This document shows, one piece after another, positions 1 through 9,687 of a DNA stretch of 9,687 nucleotides (its first letter is position 1; every line of letters begins with the position of its first letter). The stretch covers positions 1 to 9,687 of the forward strand of contig DAIUEN010000008.1 of NCBI GenBank assembly GCA_036845085.1. Direction: 5' to 3'. Source of the DNA: Candidatus Nanopusillus sp. (GTDB lineage: Archaea; Nanobdellota; Nanobdellia; Nanobdellales; Nanobdellaceae). The position numbers were made by a program, and so were the translations under genes. Under the pieces are notes generated by a model, which was given only the letters and a program-made list of their open reading frames with translations, was not told where the DNA came from and did no database searches.

Positions 1-24
1 GAATGGTGGGGAGTTGATAAAATA

Positions 25-1920
25 ATGATAAGAAAATATACTAATCCAGAACCTTTATATACTTTAGGAATAGAACAAATAGGTTCTATATTCAATATAC
101 TAAATAAAAGACCAAATGAATCAATAAATTCAGTTAATGTAACATATGGTTTATTTAGTAAAAATAATACAAATGTTATAGTAAACTTTTATTTAAATAA
201 TACTCTAGTAGCTCAAAAAACTTATACTCTTTCGGCATTGCAAACTCTAATAGATTCTTTTGTTTATATTTTAGATCAGGAAGGAACATTCAACATAACT
301 CTTGTAGCAAATTTTATAGATGTTAATCGTACATCATCTGATAGTTTTAGAATTCTTATAGACCTTAAAGATCCTGTTTTATATTTTATAAACGGAATTC
401 CATATGTTTATGATGTATCACCTTCAGATTGTTATACTAAACCAGATAAAGTAATATGTATAGATGCATTCAACCATACTTCTGAGTATTCTTATAATTA
501 TATATTATCGAATATTAGCATACAAAATTCGGATTTATTTTTATATTTATTTGCAACAAATAATCCTAGAAATATCTCTATAAACTTTACTAATGTTTCA
601 TTAATAGAATCTAATTTTAGTAATGTAAGGGTTGTATGTACTAATTGTACTTTTGGTAGAACTAATCAAATAATATATATTAATAATTCGGCATTAATTT
701 ATATCATCAGAGACAAAAATTTATTATTTAATAGCTTAACTTTGAGTAATACTTCAAATTATACAGTTGGTAAAACAGATTTAATTTTGATCAGAGATTA
801 TTATCCTATACTAAATGTATATGGAGATAATGATCGAATAATATCATGGCTATTTATTTCATATATAAATAGGAATAATTTTCAAGAAATATTAAATAAT
901 GGTAATTTTAGAATATATACAGATGTAGAATTTTCAGTAAGAGATTATTTCAGTTTATCTACTCTACAATTTCATAGACTACCTCTCGGAACAACAACAA
1001 CAATAACAATAAACCTTAGTGGTTATCCAATAATTACTAGAACATTTCCTTTTGCATTCTCGAATTTTATATTAGCAAATGAAACACCAAAACTACAAAT
1101 ATTATTACCTAGATTGGAAACTGCAAGAATCCTAAGAATATATGTAAAACCAGCAGGATATTATGTTTATCTCTATAAAAGAGCTGGAAATAATTGGGAA
1201 TTAGTAAGTTTTGCAAAATCTCAACCAACACTCGCAGGAGAACTCCTATTTATAATACCAGAAACAGATTATCTAAGATTTGAATTTTATGATCAAAATG
1301 CAAATCTCGTTTATTGGCATGAAGATATTATTTCTGGAAATGATTATGAGTTCAACTTAGAAGAAAAATCTACTGTTTCATATTCAGTAACAAGGAAAGA
1401 AATGATACCATTATATATATTAGGTAATCCTTATGAATTTAATGCTACAAATATGACCTTTATATTTAATAAAAATGTAACATCTGTGGAATTATGGTAT
1501 TTACAAGGAAATAAATGGTATAGAAAATCATTAGGAATTTCAAATACACCAGTAGTATTTATTAATACTTCGAAAGAGATAAATCTAGAAAATGTATACA
1601 GAGTAGTATATGTATTTAAATTTGAAGATAACAGAACAATTTGGTTAGAATATAGAATTGTACCACCATATTTAGGTTTTGAAGAAATCAAAAATTTAGT
1701 ATCTAGCGATACTGTTATAAAACTAATATTTATATTATCTGCATTATTATTCTTAGCAATAGTCTATGTCTCAACTCTAAGTGAATACTTCCATATTGGT
1801 ACTACTATAATCACAATAATATTTTTAATGTTACTTGGAGCAGTAACACTAGATTTCGGCATTGTTTTAATAATATTAACAATATTAACATATAGTGGAC
1901 TAAGTAAATATAGTATATAA
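25..1920 (+). CDS. Large sequon-rich, C-terminally membrane-anchored surface or spike-like protein (631 aa from the first ATG; may be 5' truncated by the window edge)
   Basis: Long uninterrupted ORF. By manual count about 23 N-x-S/T sequons, all N-terminal of the hydrophobic C-terminus (VIKLIFILSALLFLAIVYV and IITIIFLMLLGAVTLDFGIVLIILTILTY). The central segment NISINFTNVSLIESNFSNVRVVCTNCTF...IIYINNSALIYII looks like parallel beta-helix repeats. No N-terminal signal peptide follows the ATG at 25, and frame 1 is open from nt 1 (EWWGVDKI-M), so the true start may lie upstream of the window. Confidence 0.8.
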   Translation: MIRKYTNPEPLYTLGIEQIGSIFNILNKRPNESINSVNVTYGLFSKNNTNVIVNFYLNNTLVAQKTYTLSALQTLIDSFVYILDQEGTFNITLVANFIDVNRTSSDSFRILIDLKDPVLYFINGIPYVYDVSPSDCYTKPDKVICIDAFNHTSEYSYNYILSNISIQNSDLFLYLFATNNPRNISINFTNVSLIESNFSNVRVVCTNCTFGRTNQIIYINNSALIYIIRDKNLLFNSLTLSNTSNYTVGKTDLILIRDYYPILNVYGDNDRIISWLFISYINRNNFQEILNNGNFRIYTDVEFSVRDYFSLSTLQFHRLPLGTTTTITINLSGYPIITRTFPFAFSNFILANETPKLQILLPRLETARILRIYVKPAGYYVYLYKRAGNNWELVSFAKSQPTLAGELLFIIPETDYLRFEFYDQNANLVYWHEDIISGNDYEFNLEEKSTVSYSVTRKEMIPLYILGNPYEFNATNMTFIFNKNVTSVELWYLQGNKWYRKSLGISNTPVVFINTSKEINLENVYRVVYVFKFEDNRTIWLEYRIVPPYLGFEEIKNLVSSDTVIKLIFILSALLFLAIVYVSTLSEYFHIGTTIITIIFLMLLGAVTLDFGIVLIILTILTYSGLSKYSI

Positions 1921-1961
1921 TAATACGAAAAGAATATTAATCTAAAAAATAATAAAAAATT

Positions 1962-2432
1962 ATGGGTCTTTCAGAAACTACAGGCTGGGATGCTTTAGTA
2001 TTTCTTATGGTATTTGGTTTTTTACTTCAGCTTATAGGTCTAGTCGAAGGTCCTTTTAATATACAATCTTTATTTAAATTAGAATCTGTAACAATTAGCA
2101 TTGGATCTGTTGATATTATAACTGTACCCTACGCAATTGCAGTAGTTCTAGGTGAAGTTGCAAAAACAACAGCAACTTTATTAACTGTTTATCTAGGTGG
2201 AACTACAGTAATTGGATTATTAACTGGTAGAAGTATGACTACTGGATTTGACTTTCCAGTAATATATAGAATCGTAATGTGGGGAGTACTTATTGCAATA
2301 TTTGCACCAGTCTTTTCAATGTTAGAAGCTTTAGCAACTTTACCATATATTGGAACTTTCTTAATGATAATAATATTATTCTTATACTTATTGGCTATGT
2401 ATAGTATCGTATATGCTCATGCTACAAGATGA
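1962..2432 (+). CDS. Integral membrane protein, about 4 TM helices, unknown function
   Basis: 156-aa ORF with four long hydrophobic stretches (ALVFLMVFGFLLQLIGLV, PYAIAVVLGEV..LLTVYLGG, IVMWGVLIAIFAPVFSML, IGTFLMIIILFLYLLAMYSIVY). Its TGA stop overlaps the next ATG (ATGA at 2429-2432). Confidence 0.8.
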   Translation: MGLSETTGWDALVFLMVFGFLLQLIGLVEGPFNIQSLFKLESVTISIGSVDIITVPYAIAVVLGEVAKTTATLLTVYLGGTTVIGLLTGRSMTTGFDFPVIYRIVMWGVLIAIFAPVFSMLEALATLPYIGTFLMIIILFLYLLAMYSIVYAHATR

Positions 2433-2677
2433 TACAATTGGATCCAGATTTTGTTTTGATTCTTGTTATATCTTTTTTAGTTATTTCAAATTTATTTGTA
2501 TTTAAATATGGTCCTGTACGAACTAAAATAATATATATGATTGTATCTATATTATTATTAGGTAAATTTTTAGCAAGTTTTGATAAAACTTGGAGTACTT
2601 TATTAATGTTGGTAGGAGCAGTATTCATTACATATTATGTTGCTGATAAGTTTCAAAATCTGTTGCGAAAGTTTTAA
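2429..2677 (+). CDS. Small integral membrane protein, about 3 TM helices
   Basis: 82-aa ORF with hydrophobic segments FVLILVISFLVISNLFVF, IIYMIVSILLLGKFLA and LLMLVGAVFITYYV. ATGA coupling to the upstream gene. Confidence 0.75.
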   Translation: MIQLDPDFVLILVISFLVISNLFVFKYGPVRTKIIYMIVSILLLGKFLASFDKTWSTLLMLVGAVFITYYVADKFQNLLRKF

Positions 2678-2702
2678 AAGTTTTGTGATAATAATAATTA
2701 AT

Positions 2703-3533
2703 ATGAATCCGGAAAACAGAAAACCTATCTCATTGATATATAGTCTATTTGAAGATAAAACTTATTTAGAGATACTTAAAGAAACTATAGAGAAAAGTAT
2801 ACAGATACATGAAGAACTTTTAAATTGGATTTCTGTACAACTAGCTAACGTTGAAGAAAAAATAAAATATGTTGTATTGGATATGTATACAATATATAAA
2901 TCTGAAATCAAAAGAGATCCTTTAACTAGTGATCAAAAACAAGAATTATTATTATTGACTAATGAACAACTAAAAGAAAAGTTAAAAGATTTTTATGTTA
3001 CTGAAAAAGATTTAAACAAATTATCTGGAGAATATAGAATAAGATTCTTAGAATTAGAAAATGAATTAATCAGATTATTAAATGAATATAGAGAATTAGC
3101 ATATGCAAGAGAGAAATTAACTGAAGAATTAAGATATAGAGAATCTTTAAAAGAAATCTATAAAAAAGTTCTAGATTTATTACAATTATATCCTAAACAT
3201 ATTAGATTAGGAAATCTAGATCAATTAGAACTTACAGCAATGAGATATTTCACAGATGCATATCTCTCATTACTGGCAAATGGATTATTATATGGGGATG
3301 TAGAGATTATGGAAGTTGCTAACCTTATAGTATTGCCATATATTTTGAATCTACAAGAAACTTCTCTATCTAGAGATGGTTTCTTCCTAAAATTAGTACA
3401 TAATGCACCTTTAATTACTGAATTAGGACCAAGAAAAGATGAATTAAAACAACAATCTGCCTCAGAAATCTTTCCTTTATTTTCAAAAGATAAAGAATAT
3501 TCAGGCCTAATAAATTGGTTTATTAAAAAATGA
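2703..3533 (+). CDS. Coiled-coil-rich hypothetical protein (276 aa)
   Basis: The track ORF starts at 2637, but its first 22 codons overlap the previous gene by 41 nt and read as low-complexity sequence. The ATG at 2703 (MNPENRK...) lies after the upstream stop. The central part has strong heptad-like E/K/L composition (LKEKLKDFYVTEKDLNKLSGEYRIRFLELENELIRLLNEYRELAYAREKLTEELRYRESLKE). The 2637 start cannot be excluded. Confidence 0.75.
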   Translation: MNPENRKPISLIYSLFEDKTYLEILKETIEKSIQIHEELLNWISVQLANVEEKIKYVVLDMYTIYKSEIKRDPLTSDQKQELLLLTNEQLKEKLKDFYVTEKDLNKLSGEYRIRFLELENELIRLLNEYRELAYAREKLTEELRYRESLKEIYKKVLDLLQLYPKHIRLGNLDQLELTAMRYFTDAYLSLLANGLLYGDVEIMEVANLIVLPYILNLQETSLSRDGFFLKLVHNAPLITELGPRKDELKQQSASEIFPLFSKDKEYSGLINWFIKK

Positions 3534-4141
3534 TTCTAAAAATATTTGGTAATAAAAAAAATAATACTAAGGACCAACAAAATTTTGAAAACTATTATAT
3601 TTTATTAGAGATAGATAGTGGTGGTAATATTAATATGATAAAAGCAAAGCCTGAAGAATTACCTAAATCATTATTAGTTTCAGGTTACTCTCTATTAAGG
3701 ATTGATGATCAAGTATATAGATGTTATGTTGTTGTAAAAAATTATTTAACTCCAACTCTAGATATACCTCTAATAAGAGAATTAATTGCAAAAAATCCAT
3801 ATATACCACTAAATACAGTAAATATGCATTATTCAACTGTACATAGATTCAAAAAACAAATATATGAATTTGTAGAAGTTGCACAAGCCTCAAAGTGGAA
3901 TAGAATAATTATGGAAAAAGGTTTAATGTCAAAATCATTCCAATTATCTGATTTAGCAAAATATATCTTTATTGCTATAATAATTGCCGGACTTATTGGA
4001 ATTGCATATGTATTATTCTTTAAACCACAATCAAATACACCGGCACCATTAATGCCATTACCAACAAATACAACCAATATAACAAATATAACAAATAACC
4101 TTGAAGCTGGCCATAATACAACAGAACAAATTAACTTATGA
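3530..4141 (+). CDS. Single-pass, C-terminally anchored membrane protein with a short sequon-rich extracytoplasmic tail
   Basis: 203-aa ORF with ATGA overlaps at both ends (3530-3533 and 4138-4141). One TM helix (YIFIAIIIAGLIGIAYVLFF) is followed by PQSNTPAPLMPLPTNTTNITNITNNLEAGHNTTEQINL, which carries 4 N-x-T sequons. Confidence 0.8.
   Translation: MILKIFGNKKNNTKDQQNFENYYILLEIDSGGNINMIKAKPEELPKSLLVSGYSLLRIDDQVYRCYVVVKNYLTPTLDIPLIRELIAKNPYIPLNTVNMHYSTVHRFKKQIYEFVEVAQASKWNRIIMEKGLMSKSFQLSDLAKYIFIAIIIAGLIGIAYVLFFKPQSNTPAPLMPLPTNTTNITNITNNLEAGHNTTEQINL
4074..4100 (+). repeat. Imperfect 9-bp tandem repeat (CCAATATAA / CAAATATAA / CAAATAACC) inside the CDS
   Basis: Read directly from the sequence. 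It encodes the NITNITNN glycosylation-sequon run of the tail of the 3530-4141 product. Confidence 0.6.
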
Positions 4142-4620
4142 TGATGAATGAAAATACAAAAAAAGAAGAATTTGTTAGTCTAGATCTAAGAGTTTTACCA
4201 TATTGGAATCTAATAAGAATTGCAAAAATTATTGAAGATAGAGTTCTAAATATAGATAGTACTGAATATTTATTAAGATTAACACATGAAATTCCGAATC
4301 CAGATATAATAAAAAATGAGATTTTAAAAAGATTAAAAAACTTATATTCAATTTCACTTGCAATATTATCAATTTATGGTAGAGAAAAAGAAATATTAAA
4401 GGATTATAAAGAAATTATGAGTATACCTAATATTGATGAAATACTACCTAGAATCTCATATTATACAACTAAAATATTAACAGAATTATATCAATTAATG
4501 AAAGATTTAGGTTTATTACCAAAAGAAAGAGAAAGAGACGAATTAGAAGAGCTTGAAGATTTCTTAAGTACAAAATTATACGAAGAAGATGGAACTACTG
4601 GAGAAACAACTAATAGATAA
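4138..4620 (+). CDS. Helical hypothetical protein with acidic C-terminus
   Basis: 160-aa ORF whose start overlaps the upstream stop (ATGA). Composition is consistent with the neighbouring genes. The C-terminus is RERDELEELEDFLSTKLYEEDGTTGETTNR. No motif recognised. Confidence 0.7.
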   Translation: MMMNENTKKEEFVSLDLRVLPYWNLIRIAKIIEDRVLNIDSTEYLLRLTHEIPNPDIIKNEILKRLKNLYSISLAILSIYGREKEILKDYKEIMSIPNIDEILPRISYYTTKILTELYQLMKDLGLLPKERERDELEELEDFLSTKLYEEDGTTGETTNR

Positions 4621-5422
4621 ATTTTTTAATGTAGAGATTCCAAAAAAATCAGTCTTAGAATTTTTTAAATCAAAATATCCACATATTTTTTTTGCATATT
4701 TAATAAAAAGAACTTTTAGAGAAGATTGGAATCTAGAAATTGTCATTGATGGGAATAAAGGTGTAGGGAAATCTTATTTAGGATTTAAAATATTAGAAAC
4801 TTTTACTTATTTAGATTCAAAAGAAAAATATTCTCAAGACATCATCAAAAAATCTTTTATTGTTCCTTTACCTGTTACATCATTATCAGATAAAGAAGAA
4901 ATAAACTTAATAGTAGAACAAATCAAAGAAGCTTTAGAAGATGATAATATTAAATTGATTGTTTTTGATGAAGCAGGAGATTTATTATTTACTTATGATA
5001 GAATGACAAAAGAAGCGAAATTATTAGTAAAAATATTAAGGAAAGTTAGAAAATATAAAAAATCATTTATATTTATTCATCCGCATATTTTTGAATTAAA
5101 TCCTAATATAAAATATAGATCTTTTAGTTTATGGATACATGGCTTATATAGAGTTTATAATAAATATTCAAGGTTTGTAGTATTAAGAGGTATTGACTAT
5201 AAAAAAGAATTTGTTTATTCTTTGGATCATATAAAGCATGCTTTGGATGTTTATAACATACAAGGTTGGTTTAAAAATAAATATTATTTATTTTCTTTTA
5301 ATTTTAATTATAATCCTGATGATTATTCAAATTATAAAGAATTATTAAGGGAAAAACAACAAGAACTTATCTTATCTAAAGAAACAAAAATTTATGGAGT
5401 AACTATAAGAGAAATTTATTAA
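4589..5422 (+). CDS. P-loop NTPase (candidate virion-assembly, packaging or replication ATPase)
   Basis: Walker A is GNKGVGKS (aa 55-62, nt 4751-4774). Walker B is IKLIVFDEAG (D127/E128, nt 4967-4972). The only in-frame ATG before the P-loop is at 4589, overlapping the upstream gene by 32 nt. It is the last gene of the operon and is followed by T-tracts. Confidence 0.85.
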   Translation: MELLEKQLIDKFFNVEIPKKSVLEFFKSKYPHIFFAYLIKRTFREDWNLEIVIDGNKGVGKSYLGFKILETFTYLDSKEKYSQDIIKKSFIVPLPVTSLSDKEEINLIVEQIKEALEDDNIKLIVFDEAGDLLFTYDRMTKEAKLLVKILRKVRKYKKSFIFIHPHIFELNPNIKYRSFSLWIHGLYRVYNKYSRFVVLRGIDYKKEFVYSLDHIKHALDVYNIQGWFKNKYYLFSFNFNYNPDDYSNYKELLREKQQELILSKETKIYGVTIREIY

Positions 5423-5424
5423 AA

Positions 5425-5450
5425 TTTTTAGTACAACTCAATAATTTTTT
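5425..5450 (+). terminator. Oligo-T tracts downstream of the operon (archaeal-type terminator candidates)
   Basis: T5 at 5425-5429 and T6 at 5445-5450 lie just after the TAA at 5420-5422. Archaeal RNA polymerase terminates at oligo-T. The background is very AT-rich, so specificity is low. Confidence 0.35.
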
Positions 5451-5485
5451 AAATATTAGTGAGTATATTACTCCATTCTCGTGAT

Positions 5486-5495
5486 GCACATGTGC
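5486..5495. repeat. Perfect 10-bp palindrome GCACATGTGC inside a locally GC-rich island (about 5478-5510)
   Basis: Read directly. It is embedded in ctcgtgatGCACATGTGCtacctctgatcgg, which is far more GC-rich than its surroundings. Confidence 0.5.
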
Positions 5496-5555
5496 TACCT
5501 CTGATCGGTAAAAAATAGAAAAGATAATATTTTAAATTATAAATTATAGGGAACA

Positions 5556-5645
5556 CTTTGGGTACCTTTTGGGTACCCATGTCATCAAAAAAATTTTTTT
5601 TTTTGAAAATCGAGGGTAACGAATGGGTACCCAAAGAGTACCCAT
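5556..5645. promoter_or_regulatory. Inverted, helically phased GGGTACC-box array flanking an A7T11 tract (candidate origin of replication or operator)
   Basis: Two perfect 10-bp palindromes TGGGTACCCA sit at 5570-5579 and 5624-5633. Each has a degenerate copy 11 bp further out (TGGGTACCTT at 5559-5568 and AGAGTACCCA at 5635-5644). TTTGGGTACCCAT (5568-5580) is the exact reverse complement of ATGGGTACCCAAA (5623-5635). The spacer contains TCA7T11GA (5585-5606) and a degenerate GGGTAAC (5614-5620). Confidence 0.6.
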
Positions 5646-5734
5646 CCATTAGACTTAACCTAGATAAATTTTTTGTGTCTTTCTGTTGTTACTATTCAAT
5701 ACTAAAACGTTAGTTTTATAAAATATGATGTTCG

Positions 5735-5760
5735 TTGATTATCATTATTGATTATCAATA
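5735..5760. repeat. TTGATTATCA direct repeat (13-bp period) overlapping a 15-bp palindrome
   Basis: TTGATTATCA occurs at 5735-5744 and 5748-5757. TATTGAT-T-ATCAATA at 5746-5760 is a palindrome with perfect 7-bp arms. Confidence 0.5.
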
Positions 5761-5770
5761 TCAAAATTTG

Positions 5771-5814
5771 GAAACCTCACGCGTAGGTGGACGTCCACTC
5801 CTGTATGAGATTTC
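5771..5814. other. GC-rich imperfect inverted repeat or hairpin with a central perfect 12-bp palindrome (candidate structured RNA or protein-binding site)
   Basis: GAAACCTCA (5771-5779) pairs with TGAGATTTC (5806-5814) at 8 of 9 positions. The centre is GTGGACGTCCAC (5787-5798), a perfect palindrome. Local G+C is far above the window background. Confidence 0.45.
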
Positions 5815-6126
5815 AAAAATTGCATTTTTGTTACTTTTTAGTGACAAAATTATCAAAATTTATTCATAAATATATACGATAATTTTAACCATAATTTAGT
5901 GGTGTATGTGTGTCTCTACTGATATATCAAACAATAAAAATAAATAATATATATATTTTCTTTTTTAGAATTTTGTTATAATATAAATATTCCTATTAAT
6001 AATATTATTAATTAGTAATAAAACAAAACTATTACAAAGCTAACATATATTATCACAATATTTCAGATTATTTTTAAATAATAAAAAGACGTTAAATTTT
6101 TAAATTTTAAGGTATAATAATATAAT

Positions 6127-6768
6127 ATGGCACTTGAAAAGATATCAGATCCAAATCCTCAAGAAGCAGAAGGCAAAGATATAGATGAAATAAAGCTAAT
6201 AGAAACGGCCAAGTTTGATCCAAAAGAAGTAAGAGATCTAGTAAATACTTTAAATTCTCGGGGTATAGAACTTCAAAAATTATATCTTAGTTATATATTC
6301 GAAAAGGATCAAAATGAAAAAGAAAGATTAAAACAAGAATTCAACAAAATAAAAGAACAGAATGACAATCTAATAAAAGAACTCGAGCAAAAAAGTAAAG
6401 ATTTTATTAAAGATGCAGAAAATATTATAAAGCATCTCCAAGTATATGAAATATGGTTCAAGAAAGATAAATCTAATAATACCTATGCAATATTATATAG
6501 TAAAATATATAATGATATATTTAATAGGCTGGAAGATTTAGATAATGCATATAAAATATTAGAAAAAGAAAGTATAACAGATTATGCAAAAGAAAAATTT
6601 AGAGAAATTAGAATGAAACTAAAAGAGATTGTTGACGAATTATACAAAATAAAAGATGAAACTGAAAAAATGTATGACCTTGCTTATTTAATAAAAACTA
6701 CTTTAGGTATTAACAAAGCAGAAGGACATATTTTATCTAATCTTGCTAACAAAAGACGCCTTATATAA
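6127..6768 (+). CDS. Alpha-helical, coiled-coil-rich hypothetical protein (213 aa)
   Basis: Clean ORF after the long non-coding interval, with AT-rich TATA-like boxes upstream (tttttaaatttta). K/E/L-rich heptad-like segments (EKERLKQEFNKIKEQNDNLIKELEQKSKDF and KEKFREIRMKLKEIVDELYKIKDETEKMYD). Two T6 tracts follow the stop (6787-6792 and 6799-6804). Confidence 0.8.
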   Translation: MALEKISDPNPQEAEGKDIDEIKLIETAKFDPKEVRDLVNTLNSRGIELQKLYLSYIFEKDQNEKERLKQEFNKIKEQNDNLIKELEQKSKDFIKDAENIIKHLQVYEIWFKKDKSNNTYAILYSKIYNDIFNRLEDLDNAYKILEKESITDYAKEKFREIRMKLKEIVDELYKIKDETEKMYDLAYLIKTTLGINKAEGHILSNLANKRRLI

Positions 6769-6809
6769 TAGTATAATATTTAAATATTTTTTATTTAATT
6801 TTTTATAGC

Positions 6810-7061
6810 ATGTTAAACAATTATCAAAAAGGACGTGCTAAAGAATATCGAATCAAACAAAAATTAAAAAAAGAAGGATATTATACTATTAGAAGTGCAG
6901 GATCACATTCATATTTTGATTTGATTGCAATAAACAAAGAAAAAAAAGAAATATTACTTATACAAGTAAAATCAAATAAAACCAAAAAAATAGAAGAATT
7001 TTATCAAAAATTAAATAATGAGTTTAGTGGACAATACACTGTTAAAGTTGTATTATTGTAA
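6810..7061 (+). CDS. hjc: Minimal archaeal Hjc-type Holliday-junction-resolvase-like PD-(D/E)xK nuclease (83 aa) with QxK in place of ExK
   Basis: YQKGRAKEYRIKQKLKKEGYYTIRSAGSHSYFDLIAINKEKKEILLIQVKS aligns by eye with my recollection of Pyrococcus Hjc ([48 protein letters not shown]). E12, the RSAGS motif, D37 and K54 are conserved. The position of catalytic Glu46 is Gln52 (CAA, 6963-6965). The protein stops about 40 aa short of the roughly 120-140 aa typical of Hjc. Confidence 0.7.
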   Translation: MLNNYQKGRAKEYRIKQKLKKEGYYTIRSAGSHSYFDLIAINKEKKEILLIQVKSNKTKKIEEFYQKLNNEFSGQYTVKVVLL

Positions 7062-7064
7062 CAA

Positions 7065-7412
7065 TTAGCTAGTGTAATTTTGTTTTTGTTTCTTTTTATT
7101 TTGTAGAGTCAACTTATATGTTACTATTACTAACTCATCTTTAAATTCAACATTTGTAACTTGCATGCTTTTGATTTCTATATTATTATCGTCATAATAT
7201 TTACTTTTTAGTTCTTTTTCTATATATTGTTTTAGATAATCTTTAACATGATTTTTCTCAAAATAATTTTTTACTATTTCCCGTATAATAAATCTTCTTT
7301 GTAATTGGTAATACCATCTCATTGTTTGTAAAATATCTTGAGCTTTGATACTAATATCACTAAATAAATTGCCATCTTGATCAAAATAAACACTAACGTA
7401 TACATAACTCAT
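7065..7412 (-). CDS. Hypothetical protein (115 aa from the internal ATG; the track ORF extends to 7544)
   Basis: This is the only convincing minus-strand gene. It converges on the hjc-like gene with a 3-bp gap. The track start at 7544 would overlap the divergent gene's ATG (7536) and adds 44 low-complexity codons across the intergenic AT-rich region. The ATG at 7412-7410 (MSYVYVSVYFDQDGN...) begins the part with protein-like composition. No motif recognised. Confidence 0.6.
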   Translation of the reverse strand: MSYVYVSVYFDQDGNLFSDISIKAQDILQTMRWYYQLQRRFIIREIVKNYFEKNHVKDYLKQYIEKELKSKYYDDNNIEIKSMQVTNVEFKDELVIVTYKLTLQNKKKQKQNYTS

Positions 7413-7467
7413 ATTCCTATATATTATGTAAAAAAATTTATTAGTTTTTGTGTTTATGTTTTTAAAA

Positions 7468-7531
7468 CTACAATGTAGTACTAGTATATACACTAGTAGC
7501 AAAAATTTATTAATATTTCGTATTAATATTT
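7468..7531. promoter_or_regulatory. Palindrome-rich and repeat-rich divergent control region
   Basis: CTACA-A-TGTAG lies at 7468-7478. TACTAGT (7479-7485) and ACTAGTA (7492-7498) are inverted repeats around ATATAC, giving two ACTAGT cores 12 bp apart. TATTAATATTT is directly repeated at 7508-7518 and 7521-7531, ending 5 nt before the ATG at 7536 (TATA-like, compatible with a short or absent leader). Confidence 0.4.
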
Positions 7532-7535
7532 TATT

Positions 7536-7790
7536 ATGGCTCAATTGGTTCAGATACCTACAAGCGAAATTTTGTCTAAGCTGAGAGATACAATAAAGAG
7601 CCTAGAAGTATTAGAGAACAGCAGTATGAATATAATTCTTGGCTTTGAGGTTAAAATAACCAAAGTATCACAATATAGGTATTTAGCGAATTTATCAAAA
7701 TTTGAAATAACTGAAAAAGATAAATTAGTTGGAATAAGGATAAAAGATTTATTGATATTCTTAATAAAGAAAAATGAGAGATCCAATTGA
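7536..7790 (+). CDS. Small hypothetical protein (84 aa), first gene of a three-gene overlapping cassette
   Basis: ORF with composition like its neighbours. It overlaps the next gene by 17 nt. The N-terminus QLVQIPTSEILSKLRD is faintly AbrB/SpoVT-like, but I cannot support that call. Confidence 0.65.
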   Translation: MAQLVQIPTSEILSKLRDTIKSLEVLENSSMNIILGFEVKITKVSQYRYLANLSKFEITEKDKLVGIRIKDLLIFLIKKNERSN

Positions 7791-8343
7791 ACAAATAAAA
7801 TTTTATCTAGATCAAGTAAAAGCAGATATACTAGAGCAAATAAAACAAACTAAAAAAGAGATAATAGAATATATTGACAAAAATCTAAATAAAATATCAG
7901 AAACTAAACCAAAAAGAAATTTCAACATCGAAAACTATATTAAAATAACAGATTATTTATTACAATTACACAAAGAAAAACCAACCAAAGCATATTTATA
8001 TAATCAACTAATAAAAGATATAAACAATAAACTAAATATAGAACAAGATGAAATCAAAAATATACTTAATTTATTAATTAAAAAAAGAATATTATTTAAA
8101 ATAGATTCTCCAAATAATGAGGAATTATATATAATATCTAAAAAAATACTGAGATATCAAAATAAAAAATCAAATACTAATCAAGATAATAAAAAACAAG
8201 AAACACAAAGTACTCAAGATCAACAACAAGATCAAAACAAAAATGAAAGTACAGTGAAACCAGCTGAAGTTCTTGATTTATCAGTATCTAAAAAATATGT
8301 TTCTAGACAAGCAGTTGATCAGTATTCTAGAGAAATCTATTAA
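7774..8343 (+). CDS. Hypothetical protein with a possible winged-helix DNA-binding core and a Q/N/K-rich low-complexity region
   Basis: 189-aa ORF. The segment ITDYLLQLHKEKPTKAYLYNQLIKDINNKLNIEQDEIKNILNLLIKKRILFKIDSPNNEELYIIS has a helix-helix-helix-hairpin pattern typical of wHTH domains (inference only). The low-complexity stretch is NKKSNTNQDNKKQETQSTQDQQQDQNKNES. Confidence 0.7.
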   Translation: MRDPIEQIKFYLDQVKADILEQIKQTKKEIIEYIDKNLNKISETKPKRNFNIENYIKITDYLLQLHKEKPTKAYLYNQLIKDINNKLNIEQDEIKNILNLLIKKRILFKIDSPNNEELYIISKKILRYQNKKSNTNQDNKKQETQSTQDQQQDQNKNESTVKPAEVLDLSVSKKYVSRQAVDQYSREIY

Positions 8344-9687
8344 AAGAAGAGAAGATATAGCTGCATTCTATGAATTAGCAAGTTTAGTATCTAATAACAA
8401 AAGCATAGATTTAAAAGAACTAGAAAGATTATTTCAAATTTATATAAAAAGTAAGAATGATACACTATTAAAATTGGAGTTATCAAAATATGGAAAAACT
8501 ACATTTTTTGGAAGGATACAAGCATGGAAAGTAGATATTTCTAGAAAACTAATAATTGTAAGATTGTCAGATAAATTAAGGGCAATAATTCCATTAGATT
8601 TATTTGAATCTTTAGATCCCTACGAAATAATACGAGAATTAGATAACCTAATAGAAATGCAAATAGTACGAAATGGTGGAAATAATCTTGTGATATCACT
8701 AACTACGTATAATATAAATGAAGACAAAAATTCTGCACAAAAAATATTAGAACAAGAACATCCAATTAAAGTTTTAGTAGAAGCATTAGGATTTTACTTT
8801 AATTATAATACATTTAGGGCAAACCTACCGAGAATAATTGCATTATTTAAGGTTCCTGTTGATGTCTATGCATCTTCAGCAATTCATCTACTACAATTTA
8901 CATTACCTGGAACAGGAAAATCAACAACAATGTACAAATTATGGAATATTTTAAATTTAGAGATCATAGGAGGTGGTCTACCATCTCCTGCTAAACTTAT
9001 TTATAATGCACAAACTCATGAAAAAGGATTAGTATATACAAGAGATTATATTATATTAGATGAATTTGATAAAAGTATCAAAAAAGAAAACTATGAATTT
9101 TTTAGTATGATACAATCAGGTATGGCTAATGGAATATGGACAAGAGAAAAATCTACAAAACTTCCATTAGGTAAACTTAAAAAAGATACTACTTTAATAT
9201 TCTTCGGAAATATAGAAGGAAATCTACTTAGAAATACAGAAAACTTTAGAGATTATATTGAAAGATATATACACGGTGTTCTAGAATCGGAAAATATAGC
9301 AAAAGCTTTTACAGATAGAATTTCAATAATCGATTTATATACTGGCAAACCATTAGTAGAATATACACATGATAAAATACCAATAGCTGCCATATTACGA
9401 GGTATCTTTAGAATTTTAGAAGAAAAAGCATATCAAATTGAAGCTCCAAACTTTGATCTAATTGGAAGACAGAGAATTCATGCAAAACAAATATACAAAG
9501 TTATAAGAGCATTAGGAATAGAAGAACCTCTAGCATATGAATTTACTCAAAATTTAGTTACTGGTGATGCTAACATAGAAAATACGTATAAAGAAGTATA
9601 TAAACAGATTACAGGAAAAGATCCTGATTCAGAATCTAATAAAAAATCAGATACATCGGAACTTGTCAAAAAAATAGAGATAAAAGA
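8297..9687 (+). CDS. AAA+ ATPase of the MCM / BrxL(Lon-like) / MoxR clade with an N-terminal domain of about 200 aa; 3' partial (runs off the window); candidate replicative helicase or initiator
   Basis: Not in the supplied track. I translated frame 2 by hand. There is a stop at 8255-8257, the first ATG is at 8297, and no stop follows through 9687 (463 codons). Walker A is LPGTGKST (nt 8906-8926). Walker B is YIILDEFDK (nt 9050-9073), matching the MCM-style DEFDK. The next segment FFSMIQSGMANGIWTREKS resembles the helix-2-insert region. The sensor-1-like motif is TTLIFFGN (N305, nt 9209-9211). The Arg-finger-like motif is AFTDRISIIDL (R341, nt 9317-9319; compare MCM LLSRFDLIF and MoxR LLDRF). 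Confidence 0.85.
   Translation, partial: MFLDKQLISILEKSIKRREDIAAFYELASLVSNNKSIDLKELERLFQIYIKSKNDTLLKLELSKYGKTTFFGRIQAWKVDISRKLIIVRLSDKLRAIIPLDLFESLDPYEIIRELDNLIEMQIVRNGGNNLVISLTTYNINEDKNSAQKILEQEHPIKVLVEALGFYFNYNTFRANLPRIIALFKVPVDVYASSAIHLLQFTLPGTGKSTTMYKLWNILNLEIIGGGLPSPAKLIYNAQTHEKGLVYTRDYIILDEFDKSIKKENYEFFSMIQSGMANGIWTREKSTKLPLGKLKKDTTLIFFGNIEGNLLRNTENFRDYIERYIHGVLESENIAKAFTDRISIIDLYTGKPLVEYTHDKIPIAAILRGIFRILEEKAYQIEAPNFDLIGRQRIHAKQIYKVIRALGIEEPLAYEFTQNLVTGDANIENTYKEVYKQITGKDPDSESNKKSDTSELVKKIEIK

What the first reader, a model, noticed from the sequence alone, without database searches (positions are those of the whole stretch)
1..9687. The window looks like a fragment of an uncharacterised archaeal virus, provirus or plasmid
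Every gene is either unrecognisable or matches a family only at motif level. The content is typical of a mobile element: an envelope or morphogenesis-like operon, a long repeat-laden non-coding region, a resolvase-like nuclease and an AAA+ replication-type ATPase. No cellular core gene is present. Gene packing with ATGA and longer overlaps is virus-like. The very low G+C, abundant N-glycosylation sequons and Hjc/MCM-clade motifs point to an AT-rich, probably thermophilic archaeal host, for example nanoarchaeotal, Sulfolobales-associated or Methanococcales-like lineages. That host guess is speculation.
Basis: inference. Interest (0 to 1): 0.75.

Follow-up and report, generated by a model that had tools for sequence, protein, structure and literature searches.

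The report
Fragment of unclassified archaeal virus-like element
The window is part of a previously uncatalogued mobile genetic element of archaea, most likely a membrane-containing virus. It joins a new seven-gene particle-building module to a swappable DNA-replication module, and matters mainly as a new lineage, not a new kind of biology.

Summary

- **Left module (1-5422).** Seven co-oriented genes: a large sequon-rich surface protein cut at its 5' end by the window edge, three small membrane proteins, two soluble helical proteins and a P-loop ATPase. The ATPase's only detectable relatives are the core ATPases of spindle-shaped archaeal viruses (SSV1 B251, ATV ORF286). All seven genes recur in two other metagenomic lineages. 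Six recur in a third, and the first five on a short contig of a fourth.
- **Control region (5423-6126).** It holds two mirrored sets of three GGGTACCC-like sites around an A/T tract.
- **Right module (6127-9687).** It encodes an Hjc-type nuclease and a full-length homologue of rudivirus SIRV2 gp18 (BrxL/Lon-like ATPase).
- **Mosaicism.** Relatives with the same left module carry different replication genes (SNF2, UvrD, PCNA, an integrase-like protein). The right module turns up next to a different structural module.
- **Classification.** Nothing matched in IMG/VR, GenBank phage records or PLSDB. Tests against Fuselloviridae, Pleolipoviridae, PAV1, His1 and pT26-2 plasmids failed except for the ATPase.
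- **Still open.** Virus versus plasmid is unresolved because no capsid protein was identified. The host is unknown; the complete lack of Shine-Dalgarno motifs argues against Methanococcales.

The parts
1..1920 (+). 3' two-thirds of a gene for a large secreted, N-glycosylated surface protein (candidate receptor-binding or terminal-fibre protein) with 2-3 C-terminal transmembrane helices. It is truncated at the window's left edge.
   Evidence: The frame is open from base 1 and the alignment with longer homologues runs through the ATG at 25. P0159 (1095 aa, signal peptide, DUF2341 at 2e-23) is 46% identical over 100% of the window ORF. It has 23 sequons against 9.7 expected. Hydrophobic segments lie at 557-627. 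The N-terminal part varies while the C-terminal ~360 aa is conserved across relatives.
1962..2432 (+). 156-aa integral membrane protein with four hydrophobic segments, a conserved member of the module.
   Evidence: phmmer 1e-25 to L020/L021, 1e-12 to L035. Alignment, hydropathy. No Pfam or PHROG match.
2429..2677 (+). 82-aa small hydrophobic protein with a conserved KYG loop. It is a candidate major virion or membrane protein; this role is an inference.
   Evidence: Conserved in five lineages. No similarity to SSV1 VP3, or to any ORF of 65 aa or more in His1 or PAV1. PDB profile search empty.
2703..3533 (+). 276-aa soluble alpha-helical protein of unknown role, well conserved across the module's lineages. 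An upstream ATG at 2637 would give 298 aa.
   Evidence: phmmer 3e-54 to L023. Alignment shows a conserved C-terminal 'NxQETSLS...FFL' block. Only chance-level PDB hits.
3530..4141 (+). 203-aa protein with one transmembrane helix followed by a sequon-rich tail (NTTNITNITN).
   Evidence: phmmer 1e-17 to L023. Transmembrane segment 137-168. Five sequons.
4138..4620 (+). 160-aa soluble protein, net acidic (19% D+E against 14% K+R), a module member.
   Evidence: phmmer 4e-14 to L023. No family match.
4589..5422 (+). 277-aa P-loop ATPase of the SSV1 B251 / ATV ORF286 type ('DnaA-like' ATPase of spindle-shaped archaeal viruses).
   Evidence: phrog_5484 at 9.8e-7. hhalign against SSV1 B251: probability 94%, E = 1.1e-7 over 135 columns. 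Against ATV ORF286: 88%. AlphaFold model pLDDT 72, pTM 0.80. Best BFVD match is ATV ORF286, E = 1.4e-8, TM 0.49. PDB matches are RecA/RadA/FlaH/KaiC-type cores with TM about 0.33. Only 3 strong relatives among 1.84 billion representatives.
5423..6126 (.). Non-coding control region, a candidate replication origin and/or promoter region. Two sets of three GGGTACCC-like 8-mers with 11-nt spacing (5549-5578 and 5614-5643) mirror each other around an A7T11 tract. A tandem TTGATTATCAwTA lies at 5735-5760. AT-rich palindromes lie at 5923-6050.
   Evidence: Function is inferred from the architecture only.
6127..6768 (+). 213-aa charged coiled-coil-like protein of unknown role.
   Evidence: Only sub-threshold coiled-coil Pfam hits. 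No relative found outside near-identical contigs.
6810..7061 (+). 83-aa minimal PD-(D/E)XK nuclease of the Hjc (archaeal Holliday junction resolvase) type.
   Evidence: PF01870 at 3.9e-7, 30.4 bits, above the 21.1 cutoff. phrog_6591 at 3.5e-6. Aligns to P. furiosus Hjc 1GEF residues 2-52. By my numbering of the Hjc catalytic residues (E9, D33, E46, K48; own knowledge), E12, D37 and K54 are kept and Q52 replaces the motif's acidic residue.
7065..7544 (-). The only minus-strand ORF: 159 aa from a TTG start, or 115 aa from the ATG at 7412. Function unknown.
   Evidence: called as 115 aa in JGI contigs. No family match.
7536..7790 (+). 84-aa protein, first gene of the module shared with L001/L002.
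   Evidence: phmmer 5.8e-7 to L001 5667-5897.
7774..8343 (+). 189-aa protein with weak winged-helix hints and a Q/N/K-rich tail, conserved upstream partner of the gp18-like ATPase.
   Evidence: phmmer 6e-6 to L001 6144-6677, in the same position. HTH_9/HTH_69 hits only at E = 0.09-0.4. No similarity to SIRV2 gp17.
8297..9687 (+). ATPase of at least 463 aa, homologous to rudivirus SIRV2 gp18/ORF436 (BrxL/Lon-like ATPase family). It is a candidate replicative or recombination helicase. It runs off the window end a few codons before its expected stop.
   Evidence: PF13337 at 3.8e-14. phrog_6542 at 4.6e-24 over 382 of 435 positions. tblastn to SIRV1/2/3 at 25% identity, 83% coverage, E = 4e-15. 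45% identical to P0001 on L001/L002. Alignment shows Walker A GTGKS/T and Walker B DE.

Best explanation
The window is roughly 10 kb of a double-stranded DNA mobile element of an AT-rich archaeon. Most likely it is a membrane-containing virus (spindle-shaped or pleomorphic type) of a family not yet described.

**Module 1 (1-5422), particle formation and host attachment (inferred).**
- A protein of about 1100 aa is exported (signal peptide in the full-length homologue). It carries DUF2341 and beta-rich domains, is heavily N-glycosylated, and is anchored by C-terminal helices.
- Its distal part varies and recombines between lineages, as expected of a receptor-binding protein.
- Three small membrane proteins and two soluble helical proteins would form or organise the particle.
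- The B251/ORF286-type P-loop ATPase would provide the energy-dependent step: replication initiation or loading the genome into particles.

**Control region (5423-6126).** Mirrored iterons around an A/T tract are the likely origin and/or regulatory hub.

**Module 2 (6127-9687), genome replication and recombination (inferred).** It encodes an Hjc-type junction nuclease, small DNA-binding candidates and a gp18-like ATPase.

**Shown:** the homologies, the conservation of each module, and their independent assortment.
**Inferred:** virion formation, the role of each protein, and origin function.
For: - **Module conservation.** All seven left-module genes recur in order in L020/L021/L023 (phmmer 1e-8 to 1e-100). 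L035 matches six of the seven, with a same-sized ORF in the w160 slot. L031, a 5.5-kb contig, carries the first five genes. G+C ranges from 24.6% to 34%.
- **ATPase.** Its closest relatives by HMM, profile-profile and fold comparison are core ATPases of spindle-shaped viruses. B251 belongs to the absolute core of fuselloviruses (PMC9608457).
- **Surface protein.** Sequon enrichment, a signal peptide and DUF2341 in the full-length homologue, and a variable N-terminal against a conserved C-terminal part. L001 and L002 are 99.8% identical but switch sequence abruptly inside this gene.
- **Replication-module swapping.** The window carries Hjc plus gp18-like. L020/L023/L035 carry a UvrD-type helicase; L020 and L023 add an SNF2 helicase, and L020 also PCNA and an integrase-like gene. 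L001/L002 carry the window's right module next to a diverged structural block. Their ATPase links weakly to the same family (1.1e-5 to L035). The same pattern is reported for Thermococcales spindle-shaped viruses (PMC12934983).
- **gp18 homologue.** It is otherwise found in rudiviruses and lipothrixviruses.
- **Archaeal signals in relatives.** PCNA (PF00705, 1.2e-15) and a histone fold.
- **Iteron cluster.** Statistically real.
Against: - No capsid protein was identified. None of the six non-ATPase module proteins resembles any SSV1, His1, PAV1 or HRPV-1 ORF by hhalign; only the large protein was also compared with long ATV ORFs.
- The structure model of the large protein was too poor to test a VP4-like fold (pLDDT 46).
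- A B251-type ATPase is also carried by the satellite pSSVx (PMC9608457), so it does not prove autonomous virion formation.
- Membrane-protein-plus-ATPase modules also define the pT26-2 plasmids, for which no virions are known (PMC6972569).
- No contig is demonstrably complete, circular or flanked by att sites, and no integrase lies in the window.
- The ATPase model's PDB matches are generic RecA-like cores (TM about 0.33). The 'DnaA-like' label is therefore weak.
- The Hjc-like protein has Q in place of the motif's acidic residue and may be inactive or non-canonical.
Confidence: 0.6

Rival explanations
1. It is an integrative or vesicle/conjugation-transferred plasmid, not a virus. The seven-gene block would be a membrane-embedded DNA-transfer or secretion apparatus, as proposed for the core module of pT26-2 plasmids. 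The right half would be the plasmid's replication and maintenance module.
For: The module is dominated by membrane proteins plus one ATPase and has no recognisable capsid protein. The pT26-2 family has the same logic of a conserved membrane/ATPase core with variable replication modules (PMC6972569). Nothing matched in IMG/VR.
Against: hhalign found no similarity between six of the module families (the large protein was not compared) and 27 of the 34 annotated proteins of pMEFER01, a pT26-2 family member. There was no tblastn hit for the ATPase in PLSDB. The ATPase's nearest relatives are viral core proteins. A hypervariable, heavily glycosylated, signal-peptide-bearing protein fits an attachment protein better than a transfer channel.
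Confidence: 0.27
2. It is a member of a known virus family, diverged beyond easy recognition: a rudivirus/lipothrixvirus relative (Adnaviria), a fusellovirus or a pleolipovirus.
For: A gp18 homologue plus an Hjc-type nuclease is a rudivirus-like pairing (PMC5537682). The ATPase is B251-like. Spike, membrane proteins and NTPase in one block resemble the pleolipovirus morphogenetic module (PMC10919331).
Against: Only replication-type genes are shared with rudiviruses. SIRV2 gp17 and gp19 have no counterparts flanking the gp18 homologue. Only B251 is shared with SSV1, and no HRPV-1 protein matches, VP8 included (probability 1.5%). The large protein does not match SSV1 VP4, HRPV-1 VP4, PAV1 ORF676/678 or His1 ORF27.
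Confidence: 0.08
3. It is not archaeal. It would be a phage or island of an AT-rich bacterium with SD-independent translation.
For: The best tblastn hits of the small nuclease are in Bacillus-group phages at 42-48% identity. I recall DUF2341 and BrxL-type ATPases also occurring in bacteria (own knowledge). The window has no SD motifs.
Against: Relatives carrying the same modules encode PCNA and a histone-fold protein. The full-length homologies are to Sulfolobales virus proteins. No bacterial hallmark such as a terminase, portal or sigma-70-type organisation was seen.
Confidence: 0.05

Closest known systems
Spindle-shaped archaeal viruses (Fuselloviridae SSV1; Bicaudaviridae ATV): core 'DnaA-like' ATPase B251/ORF286
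   Same: The 277-aa ATPase matches phrog_5484 and SSV1 B251 (hhalign 94%). Its best viral fold match is ATV ORF286. Both have a large glycosylated, membrane-anchored terminal protein beside small hydrophobic proteins (SSV1 VP4, VP1 and VP3 are glycosylated; PMC9608457).
   Different: hhalign found no similarity to any other SSV1 ORF of 65 aa or more, annotated core genes among them; the large protein was compared with C792/VP4, and the 82- and 156-aa proteins also directly with VP3. No SSV-type integrase lies in the window. The replication genes differ.
Rudiviridae / Lipothrixviridae (Adnaviria): SIRV2 gp18 (ORF436) and the Holliday junction resolvase
   Same: A full-length gp18 homologue (25% identity, 83% coverage, E = 4e-15) and an Hjc-type nuclease. 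G+C is similarly low (SIRV2 stretch 24.9%).
   Different: The neighbours gp17 and gp19 are not conserved. No rudiviral capsid or structural gene is present. The nuclease is a minimal 83-aa form. The structural module is membrane-protein-based, unlike rod-shaped virions.
Pleolipoviridae / 'Thalassapleoviridae' (HRPV-1, AvPV1) morphogenetic module
   Same: One block holds spike, integral membrane proteins, conserved unknowns and an NTPase, and there are relatives in hydrothermal vents (PMC10919331).
   Different: No sequence or profile similarity to HRPV-1 VP3, VP4, ORF6/7 or VP8. The gene order differs (here the spike comes first). The VP4 fold could not be tested because the model was poor.
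PAV1-type Thermococcales spindle viruses
   Same: The order and sizes of genes look alike: large lectin-like protein, small membrane proteins, small soluble proteins, then an ATPase (PAV1 ORF678-138-89-180b-137-375).
   Different: No detectable homology. PAV1 uses SD motifs (21/24) and the window family does not (0/12).
pT26-2 family of integrative plasmids (Thermococcales / Methanococcales)
   Same: A conserved core rich in membrane proteins with one ATPase, joined to variable replication and integration modules, in a vent habitat (PMC6972569).
   Different: No similarity to the pMEFER01 proteins compared. That ATPase is described as HerA/VirB4-like, not B251-like. pMEFER01 has SD motifs before 21 of 27 genes.

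Membership tests
Fuselloviridae | VP1/VP3-type major capsid protein | tested here: not met
   hhalign of the 82-aa and 156-aa families against SSV1 VP3 and all SSV1 ORFs of 65 aa or more gave probability of at most 1.8%. These are short hydrophobic proteins, so sensitivity is low.
Fuselloviridae | B251-type AAA/P-loop ATPase (absolute core gene) | tested here: met
   hhalign 94%, E = 1.1e-7. phrog_5484 at 9.8e-7.
Fuselloviridae | VP4 (C792) end-filament protein and the other SSV1 core genes named in PMC9608457 | tested here: not met
   No hhalign hit to any other SSV1 ORF.
Fuselloviridae | SSV-type integrase | tested here: not met
   None in the window. An integrase-like 189-aa ORF exists only in relative L020 (phrog_9208, 7.5e-22).
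Rudiviridae (Adnaviria) | SIRV2-type helical major capsid protein and linear genome with inverted terminal repeats | not testable with these tools
   The window is a fragment. No window ORF matched a PHROG structural family. No termini are available.
Rudiviridae (Adnaviria) | gp17-gp18-gp19 operon | tested here: not met
   Only gp18 is conserved. The flanking genes show no similarity.
Pleolipoviridae / Thalassapleoviridae | VP4-like fusogen with V-shaped fold | tested here: inconclusive
   No profile similarity to HRPV-1 VP4. The AlphaFold model of the large protein had pLDDT 46 and pTM 0.27, so fold matches are meaningless.
Pleolipoviridae / Thalassapleoviridae | VP3-like membrane protein and VP8-type NTPase | tested here: not met
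   hhalign probabilities of at most 1.5%.
pT26-2 plasmid family | Seven core genes (t26-5p, 6p, 7p, 11p, 13p, 14p, 15p) | tested here: not met
   No hhalign match above 7.5% probability between six of the module families (the large protein was not compared) and 27 of pMEFER01's 34 annotated proteins. No PLSDB tblastn hit for the ATPase.
Hjc (PF01870) archaeal Holliday junction resolvases | PD-(D/E)XK core with catalytic E...D...E-x-K and a dimeric protein of about 120-140 aa | tested here: inconclusive
   It passes the Pfam threshold. E12, D37 and K54 align with the catalytic residues of 1GEF as I recall them, but Q52 replaces the acidic residue. The protein is only 83 aa. Activity is untested.
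BrxL/Lon-like ATPase family (PF13337), SIRV2 gp18 group | ATPase domain with Walker A/B motifs, homologous over the full length to gp18 | tested here: met
   No Lon protease domain was detected in the 463 aa seen.

The most novel reading that the evidence does not exclude
The seven-gene block defines a new family-level group of membrane-containing archaeal viruses whose capsid and membrane proteins have no detectable relatives. It is spread across vent (and perhaps hot-spring) archaea, including hosts with SD-independent translation and very AT-rich genomes such as Nanoarchaeota/DPANN. The window lineage would then be one of the few candidate viruses of such hosts, with a tractable attachment protein and origin.
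Probability: 0.3. Interest if true: 0.7.

Novelty: new variant of a known kind. Interest (0 to 1): 0.5.

Why it matters
Archaeal viruses outside the Sulfolobales, haloarchaea and Thermococcales are poorly sampled.

- The conserved, syntenic seven-gene module can serve as a marker for mining vent and hot-spring metagenomes. It ties a group of otherwise orphan contigs to the B251/ORF286 ATPase lineage of spindle-shaped viruses.
- The family gives a clean example of replication-module exchange around a fixed morphogenetic module, and of domain swapping in a probable receptor-binding protein.
- Different lineages appear adapted to hosts with and without Shine-Dalgarno-led translation.
- None of this is a new principle. 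The value is a new lineage and a set of testable parts: the iteron origin, a minimal Hjc-like nuclease with a Q-x-K motif, and a gp18-type ATPase outside the Adnaviria.

Tried and rejected
- **Source contig.** Exact-protein look-ups returned only shorter, near-identical JGI/ENA contigs (L018, L019, L024). An NCBI copy of the ATPase, which looks identical by eye to the window's, sits on a 19,461-bp contig but could not be retrieved.
- **IMG/VR.** Four scans found only rudiviruses for the gp18 profile and nothing for the other queries.
- **Metagenome scans.** Two scans found nothing new.
- **Genome scan.** It found only a SIRV-like contaminant contig in a Streptomyces assembly.
- **BLAST searches.** Megablast of the window, and tblastn of the large protein and the ATPase, against phage records gave no match. 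tblastn of the ATPase against plasmids gave none either.
- **Structural-protein searches.** Profile searches against PDB sequences gave nothing meaningful. hhalign against SSV1, His1, PAV1, HRPV-1 and pMEFER01 ORFs (plus long ATV ORFs for the large protein) gave only the B251 match, even after adding two divergent lineages.
- **Sample accessions.** They could not be traced in the paper library, except ERR1679394, which is a Manus Basin vent sample. The readings 'ANDE17' as Anderson 2017 and 'TREM19' as Trembath-Reichert 2019 are my guesses only.
- **Rejected ideas.** tRNA-linked integration in the available loci (no tRNA). An Rfam RNA in the intergenic region (only sub-threshold hits). A Methanococcales or Thermococcales host for the window lineage (no SD motifs).

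Full report
**What is in the window**

The 9687-nt window has 21-29% G+C in 500-nt windows and 24.6% overall. It holds 13 ORFs, 12 of them on the + strand, covering about 91% of the sequence. Three gene pairs overlap by ATGA and three more by 17-47 nt. No tRNA was found and no Rfam family reached threshold.

The single long gap, 5423-6126, is non-coding. It contains two sets of three GGGTACCC-like octamers with 11-nt spacing, at 5549-5578 and 5614-5643. The two sets mirror each other around an A7T11 tract. The motif with at most one mismatch occurs 4 times against 0.18 expected, and 0 of 200 shuffles reached 4. The region folds as a long imperfect hairpin with z = -5.9.

- The first ORF is not complete. 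Its frame is open to base 1, and the residues before the ATG at 25 still align with longer homologues: 'VDKIMIRKY' against 'IDWIRVRKY'.
- The only database relative covering the whole ORF is P0159, 1095 aa, at 46% identity. It starts with a signal peptide and a DUF2341 domain. The window therefore begins inside a gene of about 1100 codons.
- This protein carries 23 N-X-S/T sequons against 9.7 +/- 2.75 expected. No other ORF is clearly enriched; the next highest count is 5, in the tail of the 203-aa protein.
- It ends in two long hydrophobic stretches (557-627) that the structure model resolves as three helices.
- Two genes do better than motif-level matches. The 83-aa ORF passes the Pfam Hjc threshold. 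The last ORF passes BrxL_ATPase, matches phrog_6542 over nearly its whole length and aligns over 83% of its length with SIRV1/SIRV2 gp18 (E = 4e-15).

**Relatives and modularity**

Near-identical copies of the window (99.3-99.9%) occur in two JGI metagenomes and one ENA metagenome (L018, L019, L024). More distant relatives show that the window is built from two modules that travel separately.

Module 1, the large protein through the 277-aa ATPase, is conserved gene for gene. The table gives gene products in amino acids, in gene order.

| Lineage | Large protein | Membrane | Small hydrophobic | Helical | One TM helix | Acidic | ATPase | G+C |
|---|---|---|---|---|---|---|---|---|
| Window | at least 631 (cut) | 156 | 82 | 276 | 203 | 160 | 277 | 24.6% |
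| L020/L021/L023 | at least 976 (cut) | 152 | 82 | 274 | 194 | 134 | 272 | about 30% |
| L031 | 1095 | 154 | 79 | 268 | at least 134 (contig ends) | not on contig | not on contig | 30.5% |
| L035 (26-kb contig of NCBI assembly GCA_054036315.1) | 694 | 149 | 77 | 262 | 194 | 148 (no significant match) | 257 | 34% |

Downstream of module 1, these relatives do not carry the window's right half. L020, L023 and L035 carry a UvrD-type helicase. L020 and L023 add an SNF2 helicase, and L020 also PCNA and an integrase-like gene.

Conversely, the window's 84-189-463 block recurs in L001/L002 (5.8e-7, 6e-6 and 1e-129). There it sits next to a diverged structural block. That block's ATPase links only weakly to the family (1.1e-5 to L035). 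L002 also has a histone-fold gene near by.

L001 and L002 are 99.8% identical over 8.3 kb but switch sequence abruptly inside the large-protein gene. The switch lies next to the segment that the window shares with L002 at 50% identity. In the alignment of large proteins, the N-terminal part is variable and the C-terminal ~360 aa is conserved. This is the pattern expected of a receptor-binding protein.

**The ATPase of module 1**

- Pfam gives only sub-threshold AAA hits.
- PHROGs gives phrog_5484 at 9.8e-7.
- hhalign of a four-member profile gives 94% probability (E = 1.1e-7) against SSV1 B251 and 88% against ATV ORF286. It gives only 7%, 5% and 1.5% against the His1, PAV1 and HRPV-1 ATPases.
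- An AlphaFold model (pLDDT 72, pTM 0.80) has ATV ORF286 as its best viral match (E = 1.4e-8, TM 0.49). Next come two unnamed proteins of 286 and 290 aa, Zot-type ATPases of inoviruses and, lower, a Nitrosopumilus spindle-shaped virus protein.
- Against solved structures it matches only generic RecA/RadA/FlaH/KaiC cores (TM about 0.33). I treat 'DnaA-like' as a label, not a finding.
- A full HMMER pass over 1.84 billion representatives found only three strong members, then a tail of distant P-loop proteins.
- B251 is one of nine absolute-core genes of fuselloviruses, is implicated in replication or packaging, and is also carried by the satellite pSSVx (PMC9608457).

**The other module-1 proteins**

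They have no detectable relatives. Single-sequence scans of Pfam and PHROGs, profile searches of PDB sequences, and hhalign of family profiles were all negative. The hhalign targets were every ORF of 65 aa or more in SSV1, His1, PAV1 and HRPV-1, and 27 of the 34 annotated proteins of pMEFER01. Long ATV ORFs were compared for the large protein only. This held after adding the divergent L031 and L035 sequences.

The model of the large protein was too poor to use (pLDDT 46). Its fold matches have TM scores of 0.08-0.15 and mean nothing.

**Module 2**

- By my numbering of the Hjc catalytic residues (own knowledge), the 83-aa nuclease aligns with P. furiosus Hjc (1GEF) through E12, D37 and K54, but has Q52 where the motif has an acidic residue. 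It is about 40 residues shorter than Hjc.
- Its best tblastn hits are in phages of Bacillus and related Bacillales genera, at 42-48% identity.
- The gp18 homologue has Walker A and B motifs, and the window holds almost all of it.
- Its SIRV2 neighbours gp17 and gp19 are not conserved here or in L001.
- In rudiviruses gp17 and gp18 were suggested to act in replication, and a Holliday junction resolvase resolves replicative intermediates (PMC5537682). I infer a comparable replication and recombination role here.

**Host**

PCNA and a histone-fold gene in relatives point to Archaea. One distant relative of the ATPase comes from a Manus Basin hydrothermal vent sample. Other sample names suggest vents, but I could not verify them.

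SD-like motifs (GGTG, GAGG, AGGT or GGAG at 3-16 nt upstream of the start codon) gave a useful contrast.

| Element | Genes with an SD-like motif |
|---|---|
| Window | 0 of 12 |
| L023 | 0 of 16 |
| L031 | 0 of 5 |
| L020 | 1 of 16 |
| L001 | 1 of 19 |
| pMEFER01 (Methanococcales plasmid) | 21 of 27 |
| PAV1 (Thermococcales virus) | 21 of 24 |
| SSV1 | 19 of 25 |
| SIRV2 | 5 of 25 |
| L035 | 10 of 15 |

The window lineage therefore probably infects an archaeon that does not rely on SD-led initiation. This disfavours Methanococcales and Thermococcales. DPANN/Nanoarchaeota-like or other lineages remain possible; that such hosts are SD-poor is my recollection and was not tested here. L035 suggests that the family also reaches SD-using hosts.

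**Verdict**

I favour a membrane-containing virus (confidence about 0.6), for three reasons:
- The ATPase has viral affinities.
- The large protein is secreted, hypervariable and glycosylated.
- A fixed structural block combines with exchangeable replication modules, as described for Thermococcales spindle-shaped viruses (PMC12934983).

A plasmid with a membrane transfer module of the pT26-2 kind remains a serious rival (about 0.27), because no capsid protein or particle evidence exists.

The element fails membership tests for Fuselloviridae, Pleolipoviridae, the PAV1 and His1 groups, Rudiviridae and pT26-2. It is best described as a new family-level variant of a known kind of element. Interest is moderate.

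Noticed in passing
window 2469-2493 and 7698-7722: A 25-nt inverted repeat, 24/25 complementary, links the coding regions of the 82-aa membrane protein and the 84-aa protein 5.2 kb apart. The best match in 60 dinucleotide-type shuffles was 21 nt (mean 17.8). No explanation; relatives lack one or the other gene, so conservation could not be tested.
   Followed up: partly
window 9687 (right end); L018 9315; L019 7057: The window and two independent JGI assemblies all end at exactly the same base, a few codons before the expected stop of the gp18-like gene. This suggests a systematic assembly break, such as a repeat or a strain-variable junction.
   Followed up: no
L001 1-362 against L002 2853: Two contigs are 99.8% identical over 8.3 kb but diverge abruptly inside the large DUF2341 protein gene, next to the conserved 'WIRVRKY' junction. 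This looks like domain swapping in the probable attachment protein.
   Followed up: partly
L002 1247-1489: A histone-fold ORF (PF00125 5.6e-7, PF00808 1.4e-5) lies just upstream of the large surface-protein gene in a related element.
   Followed up: no
L020 13395-14725: A 189-aa integrase-like ORF matches only the C-terminal two-thirds of phrog_9208 (7.5e-22) and is followed directly by a PCNA gene. It could be a short integrase or half of a split SSV-type integrase at an integration junction. No tRNA is near by.
   Followed up: partly
L017 (NZ_JBHSPB010000054.1, 2.3 kb): A rudivirus-like gp18 gene sits on a small contig of a Streptomyces gamaensis genome assembly, probably contamination of that assembly.
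   Followed up: no
L035 (GCA_054036315.1, JBPLNB010000023.1, bases 12631-26013): A divergent copy of the module lies on a 26-kb contig of an NCBI assembly: six of the seven genes match, with a same-sized ORF in the remaining slot. It has 34% G+C and SD-like motifs before 10 of 15 genes, unlike the window lineage. The first 12.6 kb of that contig could not be read and may hold host flanks or the rest of the element.
   Followed up: partly
window 5735-5803: The intergenic region also holds a tandem 13-mer (TTGATTATCAwTA, two copies) and a G+C-rich palindrome, GGTGGACGTCCAC, separate from the GGGTACCC iterons.
   Followed up: no
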